64,000 nt of DNA from Candidatus Heimdallarchaeota archaeon (GTDB taxonomy: Archaea; Asgardarchaeota; Heimdallarchaeia; JABLTI01), in assembly GCA_019058275.1 (NCBI GenBank), contig JAHLVW010000015.1, forward strand, positions 93,943-157,942, read 5' to 3'. The notes below the pieces were generated by a model. The model worked only from the letters and a program-made list of their open reading frames with translations, was not told the DNA's origin and ran no database searches. Of this stretch, positions 33,623 through 40,859 are shown piece after piece (the first letter of the stretch is position 1; each line of letters starts with the position of its first letter). The position numbers and the translations under genes are program-made.

Positions 33623-34060
33623 TCATTCTTTTGTTCGTATAGGATATGCCAATACGATTTGAGTGGGATCTAGTTTCTTAAAATTGATGAAGAACTCAAT
33701 GAACAAAGCTGCAAATACCAGATCAACTGCCCCAACTACCAGCATTGGTATGCCACATAAGTTCATTATGAAGAAAATTAAATAAATCATAAACAGAGAG
33801 ATTTTTAAAAGAATTCCCGCAGAAACCACTAAATGATTTTTAGTGATATCAAGACCAACTAGAAAATACATAAATCCTAAATTAATAATTAGGAAAAGAA
33901 AGCTATAAAGCCAAATGTAAATTTCAGGTTTCTTATAAATAACAAATATTTGCAAGAAAGTATCCACTGTTGGAGCTAAAACAGCAAAGATAATTGCAGC
34001 AAGGATGTATCCGATACCTGCGACCATAAACATGTACTTGTAATAAATTGCTTTGTTCAT
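33623..34060 (-). CDS. 4-TM membrane protein
   Basis: Four hydrophobic helices, ..DLVFAALF. Confidence 0.7.
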   Translation of the reverse strand: MNKAIYYKYMFMVAGIGYILAAIIFAVLAPTVDTFLQIFVIYKKPEIYIWLYSFLFLIINLGFMYFLVGLDITKNHLVVSAGILLKISLFMIYLIFFIMNLCGIPMLVVGAVDLVFAALFIEFFINFKKLDPTQIVLAYPIRTKE

Positions 34061-34108: not shown

Positions 34109-34126
34109 ATTTGTACAGAGACAAAA
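34109..34126. promoter_or_regulatory. Operator copy (ATTTGT-ACAGAG-ACAAAA)
   Basis: Near match to the palindrome family at 35.3 and 36.2 kb; about 50 bp upstream of the 34060 start. Confidence 0.45.
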
Positions 34127-34522: not shown

Positions 34523-35299
34523 TTATGGAATGGTAGTTGGCAAACTAACGTCATGATATTGTGACCAACCAAATAGATGGATGCATAGTGTTGCTTCAAA
34601 ACCAAATAAATCGAGTGCTGTTTGTACGATTAAAGTAACAAAAACACGATCAAAGATCCTAGATATTTCTAGTCGAAGATGATTATTTGAAAAAACATTT
34701 CCCTTAGCAGAATTTATGACACTCATTTTATCAACAAATATCATAGGTGCCTCAAGTGGTGGGAAGTAGCAATAATCGAATATCAGTTGTTTTTCATAGA
34801 GAATTTTCTCGATCTTATGAAACTCAGAGATGAATTTCGCTTCAAGATAATCTTTTATTTCTCCCTCTGCGACAATATAGTTATCATATATTCTATGAAG
34901 CTTGACAATTTTTCGTTCAAGCTTTACGCAGCGATGTTGAATTAAGCCATCAACGAACATATCTTCTAGAGTGAACAAAAGTATTTCAAAATCATCTCCA
35001 GGCATTCGTGGATGATAATAGTTAACTATATCATAATTTCCACTAGCTAAAATCCCGTCAATATCTTCTTCTGGTCTTAAAGTGAATTTTATTCCAAGCT
35101 CTAATGCTTGTCCAAATGTATCCTCAAAAAGTTGCTCTTGCAATTCTGTTACTACAGGATGAGGGGAAAATCCCTCCCAAATGTAATCAACTTCAATGTA
35201 TTCTTGTTCTTTGTAAGCATAAGTATTTGTTGCAATTAGTGGCAAGGGCATACATAGTACTAAAATGATAGATATTCTAGATAATTTCAGTAAGTTAAT
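34523..35299 (-). CDS. Secreted protein resembling a circularly permuted SBP family-5 domain; paralog B; probable ATT start at 35299
   Basis: ORF extends upstream into a signal peptide INLLKLSRISIILVLCMPL preceded by GGGAGG; ELGIKF..GNYDI and NSAKGNVFSNNHLRLEISRIFDR motifs. Confidence 0.65.
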   Translation of the reverse strand: MNLLKLSRISIILVLCMPLPLIATNTYAYKEQEYIEVDYIWEGFSPHPVVTELQEQLFEDTFGQALELGIKFTLRPEEDIDGILASGNYDIVNYYHPRMPGDDFEILLFTLEDMFVDGLIQHRCVKLERKIVKLHRIYDNYIVAEGEIKDYLEAKFISEFHKIEKILYEKQLIFDYCYFPPLEAPMIFVDKMSVINSAKGNVFSNNHLRLEISRIFDRVFVTLIVQTALDLFGFEATLCIHLFGWSQYHDVSLPTTIP

Positions 35300-35318: not shown

Positions 35319-35380
35319 TATTTTGTAGTGTGATAAAATATAGTTAAGGTGCTATAAGGATTTCGTAGTTCTACAAAAAT
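35319..35380. promoter_or_regulatory. Two operator palindromes flanking a minus-strand TATA-like box
   Basis: TTTTGT-AGTGTG-ATAAAA (35321-35338) and TTTCGT-AGTTCT-ACAAAA (35361-35378), 40 bp apart. Confidence 0.7.
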
Positions 35381-35437: not shown

Positions 35438-36178
35438 TTAGGTGGGATAACAATTGGGTAAACTGGAATCATGATAAGATGCCCATTGGAACATGTGATA
35501 AAACTCATAGACAGGGTATGGATTATAGGTTGAATGATAATCTAGGAAAACTGATCGATCAATAATTGAATTAAATTCTAATCTCAAAGCGTCATCTGCG
35601 AAAACACGTCCTGGCAAACAATTTACGTTCATACTCTCTCCATTCCTAAGAGCTGGTTCCACCCATCGAACAAATGTGAACATATACTGATTCTCCCAAA
35701 GACATTCTTCGATATCATGGAATTTATCGGTCATATCGTCTAAGAAATCTTCATCCACTACATAAGGATTCTCTTGAGCTTCCCAAAACATTCCGTAAAT
35801 CTTATCAGTTTGCTTTATGAGTTTTGGATCATCAGGTTTCAAAACAATATAGTTAAGAATCCCTAAAATGTAAGCATGAGTGAAAATATCATCGACATTC
35901 GGGATATTCAGAATCCCTCCATAGGTTAAATCCCAATCATCTGTGAATGTGGCACGTTCACGCCACTCATCAAAATTAAGATAAATAGGATTTACCGATA
36001 ATCCTAAGCTTTCCGCTTTGAATATTATTTCATCAACTATTACTTGTTTTTCTGGAAATTCCAACCAGATAATCATATCAATCGCATTTGTTTCGTCAGC
36101 AGTCGTTGAAAAAATGGTTGTTAAAGGTAAACAAAGAACTAAGATTATGAGAGTTATTTTTATGTGCTTTAATCTAAT
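35438..36178 (-). CDS. Secreted protein resembling a circularly permuted SBP family-5 domain; paralog A; probable ATT start at 36178
   Basis: Upstream signal peptide IRLKHIKITLIILVLCLPL after GAGGAG; SLGLSV..DWDLTYGG, then NCLPGRVFADDALRLEFNSIIDR. Confidence 0.65.
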   Translation of the reverse strand: MRLKHIKITLIILVLCLPLTTIFSTTADETNAIDMIIWLEFPEKQVIVDEIIFKAESLGLSVNPIYLNFDEWRERATFTDDWDLTYGGILNIPNVDDIFTHAYILGILNYIVLKPDDPKLIKQTDKIYGMFWEAQENPYVVDEDFLDDMTDKFHDIEECLWENQYMFTFVRWVEPALRNGESMNVNCLPGRVFADDALRLEFNSIIDRSVFLDYHSTYNPYPVYEFYHMFQWASYHDSSLPNCYPT

Positions 36179-36197: not shown

Positions 36198-36261
36198 GAT
36201 TTCGTAGTGTGACAAAATATGATGGAATTGATATATAAATATTTTGTAGTGAGACGAAAAG
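36198..36261. promoter_or_regulatory. Two operator palindromes flanking a TATA box in the divergent promoter
   Basis: TTTCGT-AGTGTG-ACAAAA (36200-36217) and TTTTGT-AGTGAG-ACGAAA (36242-36259), 42 bp apart, with TTTATATA (minus strand) between. Confidence 0.72.
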
Positions 36262-36303
36262 ATTTTTATGTTTAGAAAATCTAAAGATATATGAGTGGTA
36301 AGT

Positions 36304-36909
36304 ATGCCTAAAGAAAAAAGAAAAGTTGGACGACCAAGAAAGTACGAAACACAATCAGCACGACAAAAAGCCTATCATGAACGCAAAAAACAAAAAATGA
36401 AAGAATTAGAAGAGGAAGTTAAAAAATTGGAGAAGCATACTCTATTCCCCTCTGATTCACTAGATGATGTTTTTGAAGAACTTGCTTTCAAAGAAGTGTC
36501 TAAATTTCCTTGGAAAAAGATTACCCCAAGTGAGATTGCTCTTATGGGAACACAGGATCTAGAATTATTGGTTAGAGAATTTCGAGAGAGAATCCAGGGG
36601 CAATCATCATTTAACAGATCCCTAGAAAATATAGTAATGGGTATTATCAATAAAAATTACCTTGCAACTAGAGAAAACCCTCCTTTAGAAAGACTAAAAG
36701 GAGTCACTGTACAAATTCAAGAAAATATTGGGAATTTAGAGGAAAGAATGCAACAGCAAACATTACTTTATCTAATGGAGGCAGAGCTTACAAATCGAGA
36801 GAGATTAGATGGTCGAAAAACAAAGTTAGATCTTTTTGAAGCTAAAATAGATGAATTGGAAAAAGAAGTTAAGGAAAAGAAAGTTGAAGTGAAGAAAAAA
36901 GCTCATTAG
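36304..36909 (+). CDS. Putative DNA-binding regulator with basic region + coiled coil (bZIP-like)
   Basis: KRKVGRPRKYETQSARQKAYHERKKQKMKELEEEVKKLE followed by a helical domain. Confidence 0.65.
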   Translation: MPKEKRKVGRPRKYETQSARQKAYHERKKQKMKELEEEVKKLEKHTLFPSDSLDDVFEELAFKEVSKFPWKKITPSEIALMGTQDLELLVREFRERIQGQSSFNRSLENIVMGIINKNYLATRENPPLERLKGVTVQIQENIGNLEERMQQQTLLYLMEAELTNRERLDGRKTKLDLFEAKIDELEKEVKEKKVEVKKKAH

Positions 36910-37056: not shown

Positions 37057-38871
37057 ATGGAAGATGGTTTAGAAGAGATAATGAGTTTATACAAAGCTCG
37101 TAAATTTGAGGAGTGCTTGAATTCGGTTCTTGAGCTTGAAAAACAAAGCAATTTAAATGCTAATCAAAAAAAGAAAATTTCTGACTTTAAAATTCGATCA
37201 CTTATCAGATTGAATAAGTTTACTGAAGCTCATAGTATCATTGATCAAGCAATCAAGAAGTACTCAAAAAATAAAGATTGGGAAAATGTTCTTGAAAATT
37301 TAATCTCGAAAATTAGTATATTAAATGGAGAGTGGAAATTAAAAGAAACATTAGATGTAATTGATCAAGGAGAATCAATTTTAAAACAAATCAAAAAACT
37401 AACTGCAGGATTAATTGAGAGCAAGGGATGGTTATTATACTGGAAAGGTTTTATCCATCACTTTCTTTTTAAAACAAAGGAATCTATTGAATTTCTTCAT
37501 GAGTCATTAGATTTTGCAGAAAAAAATTCACTTAATGTTATTAGAGGCCAAACCTTACATTGGTTAGGTAATGGATATGGCACATTAGGGCAATATGATT
37601 TAGCTCTCAAATATAAAAAGCAAGCGCTAAAGTATTTCAAAGAGATAGGAGTTGATCTCAATGTTTTACACCTATTACACAACATTGGTATAACTTATGC
37701 TGAAAAAGGAGAATACAAAAAAACTAGAGAATATTTTAAAGAAAGATTCAAAATCACTGGCGAATACCCTCATGCCATAGCTGCCATTGGCGATAGTTAT
37801 TGGCGCGAAGAAGAATTGGAGAAAGGATTAGAATATATTGAACGTGGATTAGAAAAGCTTCAGGAGCAATTTAAAAGCATTGACAAAAATTTTATTGTTT
37901 CTTTTATACTTGCCAATTTACATTCTCGAATTGGAAAAATGGATGAAGCAATGGAATTATACAAGAAAACAATTGATCTTGCGAGTGTTTTTCCATGTCT
38001 AGCTACCATTGGTTTTAGCAATGTTGGTATTTCCACAGTTTATTTTTTCCGAGGAGAATTAGAAAAAGCATTAGAACATGCTAAAGAAGCATTAAGAATT
38101 TTAGAAGACATCGAAAATAGATATGGTATGAGTTGGGTACATTTTAGTATAATGAAAATATACCACGAGAAAAATGACTAGGAAAATGCTCTTTTACATG
38201 CACAAATTTGTTTAGATCTTCGAATGGCAATGGGGAATAAATAGGATATTGCACAAACACTGCGTTTTCTAATCACATTTTTATTAGAAAAAGAGAGCTA
38301 TGATGAAACAGATTCATATATGAAGCAACTTGAAGAAGTGGCATCAACAACTGATAATAGGATTGTAAGGCAAAATTGTCAACTTTCTGAAACATTAATA
38401 CTTAAATCAAAAGGTAGACCGAAATATTGGACACAAGCTATTGATATCTTAGAAAAAATAGTTAGTGAACCTATTGCAACTTACAATACTACTCTTGTTG
38501 CATTGATTAATTTATGTGAATTATTACTAAATGAATTCAGCATTTCTGGAGATGAGGAGGTATTAAACGATTTGCAAACACACACCAGTAGATTACTCGA
38601 TATTGCTCAGAAGCAGAACTCCTATACTTTAAGAGTTGAGGTTTATCATATTCGTATCATTACGTTATGGCTACAAGCACAACATACAAAGCTAGATATC
38701 AACATACAAAATGCATGTAGGTTGTTACAAGAAGCACGTGATCTAGCTGATTCACATGGATTGATTAAATTATCATCAAAAATCACTACTCAAAATGATA
38801 AGATGCTTGACCAGTTAGAAAATTGGGATGAATTCATAAGAAAATATTATGACTTTATCAAATCAAGCTAG
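37057..38871 (+). pseudogene. TPR-repeat protein interrupted by two in-frame TAG codons (38179, 38242)
   Basis: ORFs 37057-38181 and 38320-38871 share a frame and the TPR pattern continues across both stops. Confidence 0.8.
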
Positions 38872-39018
38872 TGATTTTATTTTAACAGAATTTTCCTTAG
38901 TTGATAAATAATAAATCAATATTAAAAATTGAAGTAGCCTTTTTCCTAAGTAGAAATAAATGATAGTTGTTATTGATGTACATTACTTAATTTTAGTTTA
39001 TTTAATTCCCAGGGGAAG

Positions 39019-40859
39019 CTTGTTGGAAGATCAATTGATTAAAGAACTATCAGAAATTGAGAAAGATATTAGTTGGCATAATTTCAGAATTGCACATGAT
39101 AAATTAGAAAAATTGAGTGAAAGAAAAAATCTACCAGAAGAAGTTTGGGTAAGAATTAAGCTTTTGAATAGTAGAAATTTAGAAGAATTTGATCCTGAGA
39201 TGAGATTGAAATTTGCAGAAGAAGCTTTGGTACAAAGTAAGGAATGAAATAATCAAGAAATGCTTTTAGATGGATTGATAGAAGTAGCTCGTTGTAAACA
39301 GCAATTAGCTTTATTTAATGAAAGTTTAGAAGTGATAGAAGAAGATGAGGAAATACTAAAGATAATAGAACAAATGGAAAACAGGGAACTGATTAAAAGA
39401 AGAATATTGTTGTTATATTACAAAGGAATTAATTTAGATAGATTGGCAGAATTAGATTTAGCTTTTGAAATCCTGACTAAGGGTAAAAATCTTGCAAAGA
39501 AAATAAATGAAATGAAATTATTAATGGATATTTATTATTGGATGAGTGTCCTCCTTTTGCATGCAGAGGATTATGAACATGGATTGAAATTAGCCTTCAA
39601 AGCAAAAGAAATTGCTATAGAAATTGAGCATAAAGTGAGCGAAGCGGAATGCAATCTTTTGATTGGATCTAATTATCAATGGACAGGTAAATATAGTAAA
39701 TCCTTGGAATTTTTCGAAGATGGTATTAAAATTCGTAAAATGCTCAATAAAAACTATAATGAGTTTAAATTTAGAATTGGATTAACTTATTTTTTTTTAT
39801 TGGAGAATTAGACAAAGCAATTGAAATGTTCCATGAAGCATCAAGTAAAATTGATAAAAAGAGCATAAATTACATGCTAAGAAGAAAGATGGATGGGAGG
39901 ATGCTTTAGTTGCATGGAAAAAAGGGGAGTTAGATGATGCTATCAAGTTCATGAAGAATTATATAGATATATGCAAATCCGTTTGAGATAAATATCACGC
40001 AAATCTAAACTCGATTTTTTTAGCTGCAATATATTTTGATAGCGGTAATATTGATTTAGCACTAGATATAACTCTCAAAGCACTTGAAAATTTACCTTTA
40101 AGTTCTCAAAACTATTCTATAAGTTTAGCTCAACAACTATTAGGGAAAATTTACCAAGTAAAAGGTGATTTTAACCTTGCATTAGATCATACACAAAAAA
40201 GCTTGAAAGTTCAAACAAAGATGGAAGTAACTCATCATCTTATAGAAACATTACTTCTATTAATCAGCATAGCTGTTGATAAGGGAGACATTAATTTAGC
40301 TAATAACTATTTAGAAAAACTTGGCAAAATTACAAAGAAAATTGAAAGTCTGTATTTCAACCAAACGTTCATTGTTAGGCAAGCAATAATTTTGAAAGCT
40401 AGTTCTAGACCTAAAAAATGGATTAAAGCAATTGAACTTTTAGAAGAAGTAATTACCGGTGATATAACGAATCATTCATTGACAGTTTTTGCAATGATAA
40501 ATCTATGCGAACTACTAATTAACGAATTCAGTATCTCTGGAGATACAGAAGTTCTACTCGAACTAGAGAAATACACTGAAACATTGACTAATATCGCAAA
40601 AAAGCAAAATTCTTACAATCTTAAAATAGAAGCAAACAACATTCGACTCCTTACACTTTGGCTGAAAGCACAGTTCTCCATTGTTGATACTGATATTCAA
40701 AAAGCAAAAGAACTTCTAGTAAAAGCTCGAGATATGGCTGATGAAGAAGGATTGCTTAGATTATCAGAAAAAATAACTCAACAACATGGAGCAAGGATTG
40801 CACGTATAGATCACTGGGATGAGTTTATCAAGAAATACTATGAATTCCTTAAGAACTAA
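39019..40859 (+). pseudogene. Paralogous TPR-repeat protein, disrupted
   Basis: In-frame TGA at 39245 and 39984, frameshift at the T9 run 39790-39798 and a second near 39890; C-terminus (NLCELL.NEFSISGD..WDEFI.KYY.F.K) nearly identical to the preceding gene. Confidence 0.8.

What the first reader, a model, noticed from the sequence alone, without database searches (positions are those of the whole stretch)
36304..36430. Yap1-like bZIP basic-zipper segment in an archaeal protein
Seen: ARQKAYHERKKQKMKELEEEVKKLE, preceded by an AT-hook-like GRPRK. From memory, yeast Yap1 reads AAQRAFRERKERKMKELEKKVQSLE, which aligns without gaps at 15 of 25 identities. bZIP factors are generally regarded as eukaryotic, so an Asgard proto-bZIP next to candidate dyad operators would matter. 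Caveats: the invariant bZIP Asn and Arg align with Gln and His, the zipper is only about two heptads, and GRPRKY..A.RQ.AY motifs also occur in small prokaryotic DNA-binding proteins.
Basis: partly seen in the sequence, partly recalled or inferred. Interest (0 to 1): 0.7.

Follow-up and report, generated by a model that had tools for sequence, protein, structure and literature searches.

The report
bZIP-like self-regulating archaeal DNA-binding protein
A Heimdall-group archaeon encodes an uncharacterised small regulator whose DNA-reading head looks like a eukaryotic leucine-zipper (bZIP) factor and probably controls its own promoter, but the head fails the bZIP tests and has closer relatives in bacteria and phages.

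Summary
Window 36304-36909 (+) encodes a 201-aa protein with GRPRKY, a basic helix and a two-heptad zipper, in the same register as bZIP factors.

It belongs to a roughly 200-aa family found in only 3 of 30 Asgard families sampled, at 1-6 copies per genome. A ~600-aa TPR gene usually follows it.

The likeness to Yap/Pap1/HapX bZIPs exceeds what composition gives: hhalign P=2e-7, against a maximum score of 21 (real 35) in 400 shuffles. bZIP membership still fails:
- The Pfam score is 15.4 bits against a cut-off of 27.6.
- The Asn and Arg of N-x7-R are Gln and His here, and vary across the family.
- The zipper stops after two heptads.

The basic motif GRPxxY-x-(S/T)NA-x-RQxAYRxRK also occurs, without a zipper, in bacterial and phage proteins.

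The strongest new evidence is an 18-bp dyad, TTTYGT-N6-ACRAAA. It lies about 60 bp upstream of 44 of 55 family genes, and its central 6 bp change with the basic-region residues.

The best reading is an autoregulating, probably dimeric DNA binder that works like a bZIP with an AT-hook arm. Shared descent with eukaryotic bZIPs is not shown.

This scan reached the same reading before on other DNA (e1-5538510, e1-5449693, e1-5525992).

The parts
36304..36909 (+). Gene for the 201-aa regulator (P0001), stop codon TAG included
   Evidence: ORF and translation. The ATG at 36304 matches the N-termini of homologues. Family HMM match E=9e-64.
36328..36345 (+). GRPRKY (residues 9-14), an AT-hook-like extended arm before the helix
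   Evidence: G9, R10 and P11 are invariant. Pfam AT_hook scores 16.4 bits against a cut-off of 17.4. DSSP shows no helix for residues 1-16. The same GRPxxY occurs in bacterial and phage proteins.
36352..36396 (+). Basic helix (residues 17-31, QSARQKAYHERKKQK), which aligns to the bZIP basic region
   Evidence: R20, A23, Y24, R27, K28 and K29 are conserved in 94-99% of 146 sequences; residues 17, 21 and 25 vary. Gapless alignments to HapX, Pap1 and GCN4.
36397..36435 (+). Short zipper (residues 32-44, with M32, L35, V39 and L42 at a, d, a, d)
   Evidence: L35 is L/M/I in all 146 sequences and L42 in 144 of 146. The next d position is mostly S, K or T. The AlphaFold2 helix 17-44 is continuous, with pLDDT about 90.
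36451..36906 (+). C-terminal helical domain (residues 50-201): W.KITPSEIALMG motif, a three-helix bundle, and a 73-residue last helix carrying the conserved QQQTLLYLMEAEL..R motif
   Evidence: Alignment; model. Structure matches are generic, spectrin- or Snf7-like, with Z up to 8.8.
36242..36259 (.). Proximal operator-like dyad TTTTGTAGTGAGACGAAA, 62 bp before the ATG, directly upstream of a TATA-like TTTTTAT (36263-36269)
   Evidence: A site lies at -59 to -63 in orthologues and paralogue groups from other genomes.
36200..36217 (.). Distal operator-like dyad TTTCGTAGTGTGACAAAA, 42 bp upstream of the proximal one
   Evidence: The same 40-42 bp pairing is seen in L013, L016, L017 and L019.
35361..35378 (.). 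Same dyad type (TTTCGTAGTTCTACAAAA) upstream of the minus-strand gene 34523-35251
   Evidence: It is one of only 6 exact matches in the 4.1-Mb genome.
35321..35338 (.). Same dyad type with one arm mismatch (TTTTGTAGTGTGATAAAA), 40 bp from the previous site
34109..34126 (.). Weaker dyad (ATTTGTACAGAGACAAAA) upstream of the minus-strand gene 33623-34060
   Evidence: one mismatch. On its own this site is not distinguishable from chance.
37057..38874 (+). Downstream TPR partner gene: 605 codons, interrupted by two in-frame TAG codons (38179-38181 and 38242-38244)
   Evidence: Pfam TPR_12/TPR_MalT. It reads as one frame when TAG is read through. The closest orthologue has Y and Q at those codons. 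A partner TPR gene lies directly downstream on the same strand in 17 loci, nearly all of the ~200-aa forms.
38959..40859 (+). Second TPR partner gene, broken into at least four pieces
   Evidence: The TPR-partner HMM matches four ORF fragments in two frames.
35438..36076 (-). Divergent neighbour (212 aa), a probable co-regulated target sharing the 36200/36242 sites
   Evidence: ORF; the sites lie in the shared intergenic region. Regulation is inferred.
34523..35251 (-). Paralogue of the divergent neighbour (242 aa), with its own pair of dyads upstream
   Evidence: Regulation is inferred.

Best explanation
The gene encodes a sequence-specific DNA-binding regulator of an uncharacterised family restricted to Heimdallarchaeia.

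Proposed mechanism:
- Two copies of the protein bind the 18-bp dyad TTTYGT-N6-ACRAAA.
- Each basic helix (residues 17-31) lies in the major groove. Its invariant residues (R20, A23, Y24, R27) read the invariant GT/AC at positions +/-4-5 from the dyad centre.
- Its variable residues (17, 21, 25) read the clade-specific central base pairs.
- The extended GRPRK arm reaches the flanking A/T tract (TTTY/RAAA), probably through the minor groove.
- The two helices are held together by the two-heptad zipper (M32, L35, V39, L42). The C-terminal helical domain and its long coiled coil help hold them.

In the window, two sites 42 bp apart lie in the promoter region. The proximal one abuts a TATA-like box, so the protein most likely represses its own gene and the divergent gene. 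A second site pair suggests the same control for the paralogous neighbour. The ~600-aa TPR protein usually encoded just downstream is probably a co-regulator or sensor.

What is shown: the motif, its register, its conservation, and the conserved, co-varying dyads.
What is inferred: DNA binding itself, dimer geometry, repression rather than activation, and the TPR role.

The protein works like a bZIP carrying an AT-hook arm but is not a bZIP family member. Its head motif is shared with bacterial and phage proteins.
For: 1. Anatomy. Residues 1-16 are non-helical and contain GRPRKY, and a single helix runs from 17 to 44 with pLDDT about 90. R20, A23, Y24, R27, K28, K29, L35 and L42 are conserved in 85-99% of 146 sequences.

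2. bZIP-like register.
- Alignments to HapX, Pap1 and GCN4 are gapless.
- 16 of 27 family representatives hit bZIP_1 below threshold, and 10 of 27 hit bZIP_2.
- hhalign P=2e-7, with the shuffle maximum at 21.3 against 35.3.
- The basic part and the zipper part each contribute in the same register.

3. Operators.
- 44 of 55 non-redundant family genes have a dyad with at most one arm mismatch within 130 nt upstream. That is 68 sites in 6,215 positions, against 78 in about 298,000 positions elsewhere in the same loci.
- The proximal site sits at -59 to -63 in the 200-aa forms and -75 to -80 in the 280-300-aa forms.
- The 4.1-Mb genome has only 6 exact matches, 3 of them in this region. The group-specific form occurs almost only here.

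4. Co-variation. The central 6 bp follow the basic-region signature:
- RQKAYH: AGTNNG
- RS[RK]AYY: GTTATC
- [KT]YARQKAYY: ATAAWT
- NADRQRAYY: AACRAT
- [ND]AERKKAYR: CYCGRG

5. The same head motif is attached to DNA-acting enzymes of mobile elements: phage-type Dam methylase, protein-primed PolB and a helicase-like protein. This fits a portable DNA-binding peptide.

6. Stand-alone 52-54-aa copies of only the head exist, with their own dyad upstream.
Against: - No experiment shows DNA binding.
- Two heptads are too few for a stable zipper on their own.
- The invariant part of the operator is its outer arms, 12 bp apart centre to centre. That would equally suit two separate reading heads joined by the C-terminal coiled coil.
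- A few family groups show no such dyad upstream, for example NAARKKAYR 196-aa forms and the window genome's own paralogue.
- The co-variation rests on only about six independent clades.
- Both TPR partner genes in this window are disrupted, so the pair may be decaying here.
Confidence: 0.65

Rival explanations
1. It binds the dyads, but not like a bZIP. Each subunit's GRPRK arm and basic helix reads one outer arm (TTTYGT) independently. Dimerisation comes from the C-terminal bundle and coiled coil, and the 'zipper' is only a linker helix.
For: - The arms are the invariant part of the site and lie about one helical turn apart.
- The head motif occurs without any zipper in bacterial and phage proteins.
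- The zipper has only two heptads.
- The most conserved block of the protein is C-terminal, residues 150-167.
Against: - L35 and L42 are almost invariant and in exact bZIP register.
- Stand-alone 52-54-aa head-plus-zipper proteins lack the C-terminal domain yet keep a dyad upstream.
- The central base pairs co-vary with helix residues nearest the zipper, positions 4 and 8.
Confidence: 0.22
2. It is a true homologue of eukaryotic bZIP factors. Either it is a relic of the archaeal ancestor of bZIPs (a proto-bZIP) or it was acquired from a eukaryote.
For: - In-register similarity to the Yap/Pap1/HapX type: PDB profile search E=1e-4 to 5e-4 and hhalign probability 93.6%.
- Many divergent members carry N at position 0 and R at position 8.
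- Some members come from MAGs labelled Hodarchaeales.
Against: - It is below Pfam cut-offs in every member tested.
- N and R are not conserved, and the AA pair is replaced by an invariant Arg.
- The zipper has two heptads.
- It was found in only 3 of 30 Asgard families sampled, and not in two single-contig genomes of the same class.
- The basic motif is about 50% identical over 32 columns to bacterial and phage motifs, against 38% over 29 columns to HapX. The bacterial comparison is biased by how those sequences were found.
- A 29-column helix can arise by convergence.
Confidence: 0.12
3. It is not a DNA-binding protein. It would be a coiled-coil scaffold or adaptor, for example for the TPR partner, and another factor binds the dyads.
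For: - One source names a homologue 'phasin'.
- The protein is all-helical with generic bundle matches.
- A TPR neighbour is usual.
Against: - The dyads travel with the family even where no TPR gene is adjacent, as in the 280-300-aa forms.
- The dyad centres co-vary with the basic-helix residues.
- The head carries a GRP arm and an invariant R/K cluster, and it is found on DNA enzymes of mobile elements.
Confidence: 0.06

Closest known systems
Eukaryotic bZIP domain (Pfam PF00170/PF07716), especially the fungal Yap/Pap1/HapX type (PDB 7aw7 HapX, 1gd2 Pap1)
   Same: - A basic helix continues into a heptad Leu repeat with the same spacing.
- It shares the Q-x-A-(Y/F)-x-E-R-K core.
- Its sites are palindromic. 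The GT/AC at +/-4-5 resembles GTTAC|GTAAC-type sites; that comparison rests on my own knowledge of Pap1 and PAR sites.
   Different: - It scores below Pfam cut-offs.
- Asn(0) and Arg(8) are not conserved, and Arg replaces Ala(3).
- The zipper has only two heptads.
- An extra GRPRKY arm precedes the helix and a 150-residue helical domain follows it.
- The site is 18 bp long with A/T arms.
- It is prokaryotic and narrowly distributed.
Bacterial and phage GRPxxY-x-(S/T)NA-x-RQxAYRxRK motif proteins (N-termini of phrog_9651, 6334, 10506, 28252, 23279; no curated Pfam family found)
   Same: The GRP-Y-(N/D)A-R-Q/K-x-AYR-x-RK motif is nearly the same and has identical spacing.
   Different: - Those proteins have no zipper after RKK.
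- The motif is usually a terminal tail on small ORFs or on enzymes (Dam methylase, protein-primed PolB, helicase-like).
- Some variants have Cys at two positions after a CxxC (L098, L105).
- Their function is also untested.
AT-hook (Pfam PF02178; HMGA, Myxococcus CarD)
   Same: A GRP core flanked by Arg/Lys, next to an A/T tract in the presumed site.
   Different: The score is just under the cut-off (16.4 against 17.4 bits). There is a single copy, and it is fused directly to a basic helix. Minor-groove binding is inferred only.
Archaeal 'zipper-like' regulators AmzR (bioRxiv 10.1101/2025.05.05.652248) and GvpE
   Same: Archaeal regulators proposed to grip DNA with paired basic helices rather than a helix-turn-helix.
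   Different: AmzR is a PAS-GAF one-component sensor whose head could not be recognised from sequence. I found no sequence relation to it, and it has no GRP arm.
Skn-1-type and Maf-type bZIP relatives with an extra N-terminal arm or extension (own knowledge)
   Same: A basic helix plus an N-terminal arm that reads flanking A/T base pairs, which lengthens the site.
   Different: This is an analogy of mechanism only. It was not tested here.

Membership tests
bZIP (PF00170 bZIP_1 / PF07716 bZIP_2) | Score at or above the Pfam gathering cut-off | tested here: not met
   P0001 scores 15.4 bits (E=0.021) against a cut-off of 27.6. Among 27 family representatives, 16 hit bZIP_1 (best E=1.6e-4) and 10 hit bZIP_2 (best E=4e-4). 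In the six-frame search of the own genome the family's matches scored 12.2-18.2 bits and nothing passed the cut-off.
bZIP (PF00170 bZIP_1 / PF07716 bZIP_2) | Basic region directly continuous with the heptad Leu repeat at fixed spacing (position 0 plus 18 is the first zipper Leu) | tested here: met
   Alignments to HapX, Pap1 and the Pfam profile are gapless. Q17 plus 18 is L35, with M32, L35, V39 and L42 at a, d, a, d. The predicted helix 17-44 is continuous.
bZIP (PF00170 bZIP_1 / PF07716 bZIP_2) | Signature N-x2-A-A-x2-(S/C/F)-R, that is invariant Asn(0) and Arg/Lys(8) | tested here: not met
   The window protein has Q17 and H25. Across 146 family sequences, position 0 is N 34%, R 25% and D 17%. 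Position 8 is R 44%, Y 27% and H 24%. Position 3 is Arg in 99%, not Ala.
bZIP (PF00170 bZIP_1 / PF07716 bZIP_2) | Leucine zipper of several heptads (typically four or more) sufficient for dimerisation | tested here: not met
   Hydrophobic a/d positions are conserved only to L42. The next d position is S, K or T in most members, and the predicted helix ends at 44.
bZIP (PF00170 bZIP_1 / PF07716 bZIP_2) | Parallel dimer that binds a short dyad-symmetric DNA site | not testable with these tools
   Conserved dyads upstream of family genes fit this. Binding and oligomeric state need experiments.
AT-hook (PF02178) | GRP core flanked by basic residues, scoring over the Pfam cut-off | tested here: inconclusive
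   16.4 bits against a cut-off of 17.4 (E=0.0077). 7 of 27 members hit. G9, R10 and P11 are invariant.
Prokaryotic/phage GRPxxY-NAxRQxAYRxRK head motif (phrog_9651, 6334, 10506, 28252, 23279) | GRP, then Y/H five residues on, then (N/D)A, then R-(Q/K)-x-A-Y-R-x-R-K at fixed spacing | tested here: met
   The family consensus GRPRKY.TNAERKKAYRERKK matches bacterial and viral sequences position for position. The same-genome paralogue P0081 hits phrog_9651 at E=3.7e-4 and phrog_6334 at E=1e-3, as do the bacterial and viral examples. The window protein itself deviates at three positions (Q17, S18, H25) and did not hit these PHROGs on its own.
Heimdallarchaeial ~200-aa family defined here (alignments A1/A2) | Full-length match: head, W.KITPSEIALMG motif and QQxTLLYLxEAEL..R motif | tested here: met
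   76 clusters at 90% identity, with E down to 1e-96. 41 representatives at 50% identity. Alignments.

The most novel reading that the evidence does not exclude
The widespread prokaryotic/phage GRPxxY-NAxRQxAYRxRK basic motif would be the evolutionary source of the eukaryotic bZIP basic region. On this reading the Heimdallarchaeial family is a surviving intermediate in which that motif first became fused, in the bZIP register, to a nascent leucine zipper. The motif alone already resembles the Yap-type basic region: hhalign P=5e-4 over 18 columns.
Probability: 0.08. Interest if true: 0.9.

Novelty: new variant of a known kind. Interest (0 to 1): 0.55.

Why it matters
Archaeal genomes are short of recognisable transcription factors, and nearly all known ones use helix-turn-helix folds. 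This is a family with a different DNA-reading head: an AT-hook-like arm, a basic helix and a mini-zipper.

Its likely operators can be read directly from the genomes, and they change in step with the protein. That gives a ready-made specificity code to test at the bench.

The work also links that head to an unannotated motif on bacterial and phage proteins, and pairs the regulator with a large TPR protein that may be its sensor.

For eukaryote origins it is a caution. A bZIP look-alike in the archaeal group closest to eukaryotes is not evidence of ancestry, because the closer relatives are prokaryotic.

Tried and rejected
- Homodimer prediction (complex prediction, two copies with alignment A1) scored 0.02 against a mark of 0.42. 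That is no answer and was not used either way.
- Foldseek against the PDB with the full model gave nothing at E<=0.001. VIA-align wide gave only generic helical-bundle matches for residues 51-201 (spectrin repeat, Snf7), with Z up to 8.8, below what is meaningful for helical proteins.
- NCBIfam gave no meaningful hit.
- The ESM Atlas feature search of residues 1-50 scored 0.81 or less and was uninformative.
- tblastn of the head against the phage and plasmid collections found no match, probably because of low-complexity filtering.
- Single-sequence phmmer over 1.8 billion representatives found family members only, with no bZIP or bacterial protein at E<=0.001.
- The word-indexed search with the head profile, longer proteins allowed, listed 120 rows, all family members. 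The other 238 weaker hits were not visible.
- Searching the genome with Pfam bZIP_1 found both family copies only at 13-18 bits. The control genomes also 'ring', one of them over the cut-off, so this model is prone to coiled-coil noise.
- Literature searches for bZIP plus Asgard, and for the motif strings, found nothing relevant.
- I considered TAG recoding as an explanation for the two in-frame TAGs in the TPR gene and rejected it. TAG ends 458 long ORFs in this genome, including this regulator's own gene.

Full report
**What is there.** Window 36304-36909 (+) is a 201-codon gene.

AlphaFold2, run with 40 homologues, gives mean pLDDT 83.8. The predicted parts are:
- an unstructured stretch, residues 1-16, that holds GRPRKY;
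- one continuous helix, residues 17-44, with pLDDT about 90;
- a small helical bundle;
- a 73-residue last helix.

**The family.** The protein belongs to an unannotated family of about 190-205 residues. There are 76 clusters at 90% identity and 41 representatives at 50% identity among 1.8 billion proteins. Longer forms of 280-300 aa exist, as do stand-alone 52-54-aa copies of the head alone.

In 301 Asgard genomes the family, and likewise its 50-residue head alone, was found only in 4 genera of 3 families of the window's own class, at 1-6 copies per genome. It was not found in the other 27 families, nor in two single-contig genomes of the same class. Source names are Heimdallarchaeota, Heimdallarchaeaceae, Hodarchaeales and AB_125. 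The window's genome has a second full copy and a 52-aa head-only copy on contig C96.

**Is the bZIP likeness real?** It is real as a likeness. Several searches agree:
- Pfam places bZIP_1 as the top named hit after AT_hook, at 15.4 bits (E=0.021) against a cut-off of 27.6.
- 16 of 27 family representatives hit bZIP_1 (best E=1.6e-4) and 10 hit bZIP_2. No other coiled-coil family is hit by more than 6.
- A profile of the family searched against all PDB sequences puts the HapX bZIP first (E=1.1e-4, or 5.4e-4 with the head alone). GCN4 and Pap1 follow, all aligned in register. A few unrelated coiled coils score between them.
- hhalign of the head profile against 109 HapX bZIP segments gives probability 93.6% and P=2e-7 over columns 17-45 without a gap.

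The controls for that last result are clear. Reversed sequences score 12. Two hundred column shuffles reach at most 17.3. Two hundred shuffles that keep the heptad register reach at most 21.3. The family's own C-terminal coiled coil scores 16.6, against 35.3 for the real comparison. The basic part (P=1.7e-3) and the zipper part (P=1.3e-4) each contribute in the same register. Composition alone therefore does not explain the match.

**Is it a bZIP?** The membership tests mostly fail.
- No member tested reaches the Pfam cut-off.
- Across 146 distinct family heads, position 0 is Asn in only 34% and position 8 is Arg in only 44%. The window protein has Gln and His there.
- The position that is Ala in all bZIPs is Arg in 99%.
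- Hydrophobic a/d positions stop at L42, which gives two heptads.
- What is conserved instead is G9-R10-P11, Y14, R20, A23, Y24, R27, K28, K29, L35 and L42.

**Closer relatives of the head.** The paralogue in the same genome hits the N-termini of several phage protein families of unknown function: phrog_9651 at E=3.7e-4, plus phrog_6334, 10506 and 28252.

I then scanned one genome per prokaryotic species and the IMG/VR viral contigs, using only the pattern [KQ][KR]AY[RYH][EQD]RKK. Besides 42 Asgard loci, this returned proteins from Synechococcus, Xanthobacter, Vogesella and a Bathyarchaeota MAG, plus two viral contigs. All of them also carry GRP (or a near variant), the Y/H and the (N/D)A at the same spacing, although those residues were not part of the search pattern. 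A stricter DNA pattern found 12 more viral contigs of 51-72% G+C. By my own estimate from base frequencies, about 0.003 matches would be expected by chance.

In these proteins the motif has no zipper after it. It forms the tail or the head of one of the following:
- a small ORF;
- a phage-type Dam methyltransferase;
- a protein-primed family-B DNA polymerase;
- a DEAD/ResIII-like protein.

The family head is 50% identical to this motif over 32 columns. That figure is inflated by how the sequences were found. The identity to HapX is 38% over 29 columns. The prokaryotic motif on its own also resembles the Yap-type basic region (P=4.8e-4 over 18 columns). So the resemblance to bZIPs is a property of this wider prokaryotic motif, and the zipper is the lineage-specific addition.

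**Operators.** The intergenic region upstream holds two 18-bp dyads: TTTCGTAGTGTGACAAAA (36200-36217) and TTTTGTAGTGAGACGAAA (36242-36259). They are 42 bp apart, at -104 and -62 from the ATG. The proximal one is immediately followed by a TATA-like TTTTTAT. Three more sites lie upstream of the neighbouring minus-strand genes, at 35361, 35321 and, weaker, 34109, as an earlier first-reader note also listed.

The whole 4.1-Mb genome has only 6 exact matches to TTTYGT-N6-ACRAAA, 3 of them here. The group-specific form TTTYGTAGTNNGACRAAA occurs, at up to 2 mismatches, only here and once on C96.

The decisive point is conservation across genomes and paralogue groups.
- Of 55 non-redundant family genes fetched from other genomes, 44 have such a dyad (at most one arm mismatch) within 130 nt upstream.
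- That is 68 sites in 6,215 positions, against 78 in about 298,000 positions elsewhere in the same loci.
- The proximal site sits at -59 to -63 in the 200-aa forms. It usually has a second site 40-42 or 56 bp further up, and it is followed by a T-rich TATA-like element.
- The 280-300-aa forms have sites near -78 and -31.

The central six base pairs differ by clade and follow the basic-region signature:

| Basic-region signature | Central 6 bp |
|---|---|
| [QR]S/A.RQKAY[HY] | AGTNNG |
| .A[DE]RS[RK]AYY | GTTATC |
| [KT]YARQKAYY | ATAAWT |
| NADRQRAYY | AACRAT |
| [ND]AERKKAYR | CYCGRG |
| a head-only protein, NAERYKAYY | GTTAAC |

The arms are constant, as is the GRP...R..AY..RKK skeleton. Clades with Arg at position 8 have a G/C centre, and those with Tyr or His have A/T centres. 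This rests on about six independent clades, so it is suggestive and not proof. A few groups, including the C96 paralogue, show no site of this form.

**Mechanism.** The most economical reading is an autoregulator that binds its own promoter as a dimer.
- The invariant helix residues would read the invariant GT/AC at +/-4-5.
- The variable residues 17, 21 and 25 would read the centre.
- The GRPRK arm would reach the flanking A/T tract.

This is how a bZIP with an extra N-terminal arm would work. A site that abuts the TATA/BRE region suggests repression. All of this is inferred.

The main mechanistic rival is two independent heads joined through the C-terminal domain. That would fit the 12-bp spacing of the arms and the very short zipper. 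The head-only proteins, and the co-variation of the centre with the residues nearest the zipper, argue for the fork model. The dimer prediction gave no answer.

**Partner.** In 17 loci, nearly all of the ~200-aa forms, a ~600-aa all-TPR protein (TPR_MalT/TPR_12) is encoded directly downstream on the same strand. None lies beside the 280-300-aa forms. In the window the first TPR gene (37057-38874) is a full 605-codon frame with two in-frame TAG codons, where the closest orthologue has Tyr and Gln. The second is in at least four pieces. TAG is a normal stop in this genome, so these look like recent nonsense mutations or population variants.

**Precedents and novelty.** I found no paper describing this family. 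Archaeal 'zipper-like' DNA binding has been proposed for AmzR and GvpE (10.1101/2025.05.05.652248), but these have different architectures.

This scan has met the family before, on other DNA: the C96 paralogue of this genome (e1-5538510) and two other genomes (e1-5449693, e1-5525992). The readings were the same. It also noted phage regulators with a similar head (e1-4038588, e1-3434360), which I did not test.

I rate it a new variant of a known kind: a basic-helix/zipper DNA binder, outside the bZIP family, with a head shared with mobile-element proteins.

Noticed in passing
window 37057-38874: The TPR gene downstream of the regulator is an otherwise intact 605-codon frame with exactly two in-frame TAG codons (38179, 38242). 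The closest orthologue has Tyr and Gln at those positions. TAG is a normal stop elsewhere in the genome, so this looks like a recent pseudogene or a population variant.
   Followed up: partly
window 38959-40859: A second TPR partner gene is broken into at least four ORF fragments in two frames.
   Followed up: partly
L012 9848-10006 (own genome C96:33859-34005); L014 2757-2921: Stand-alone 52-54-aa genes encode only the GRPRKY, basic helix and short zipper head. They lie next to TPR genes, and the L014 copy has a perfect-palindrome dyad (TTTCGTGTTAACACAAAA) at -60.
   Followed up: partly
L035-L045, L068, L070, L077, L078, L082: Long (280-303-aa) family forms carry N(0) and R(8) (NAERKKAYRERKK). 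They have no TPR neighbour and have two CYCGRG-centred dyads, at about -78 and -31.
   Followed up: partly
L093 1998-2570; L092 3-2168; L088 615-3308; L086 1986-2195: The same head motif is fused to a phage-type Dam methyltransferase (Synechococcus), to the C-terminus of a protein-primed PolB (Bathyarchaeota MAG) and inside a DEAD/ResIII-like protein (Xanthobacter). It also occurs in a 70-aa Vogesella protein with a weak MazE-like (PF11455) match.
   Followed up: partly
L098 166-221; L105 4090-4145: Viral variants of the motif have Cys at two positions (YCSxACRQxAYR), and in L105 a CxxC precedes them. This hints that the Cys-less motif may derive from, or be related to, a small zinc-binding element.
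   Followed up: no
window 34523-35251 and 35438-36076 (minus strand): Two paralogous genes of unknown function each have a pair of the same dyads upstream. With the small gene 33623-34060 they may form the regulator's local regulon. The syntenic locus L016 has the same layout.
   Followed up: partly
own genome C96:30726; L016 3607; L017 and L018 at -157: A CYCGRG-centred dyad (TTTTGTCTCGGGACAAAA), typical of the other paralogue group, also lies near window-type family genes in several genomes. This suggests cross-regulation between paralogues.
   Followed up: no
control genomes: Pfam bZIP_1 gives matches at E<=10 in all 14 control prokaryotic genomes, and over its cut-off in one. Sub-threshold bZIP_1 hits in coiled-coil-rich prokaryotic proteins therefore need controls.
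   Followed up: no
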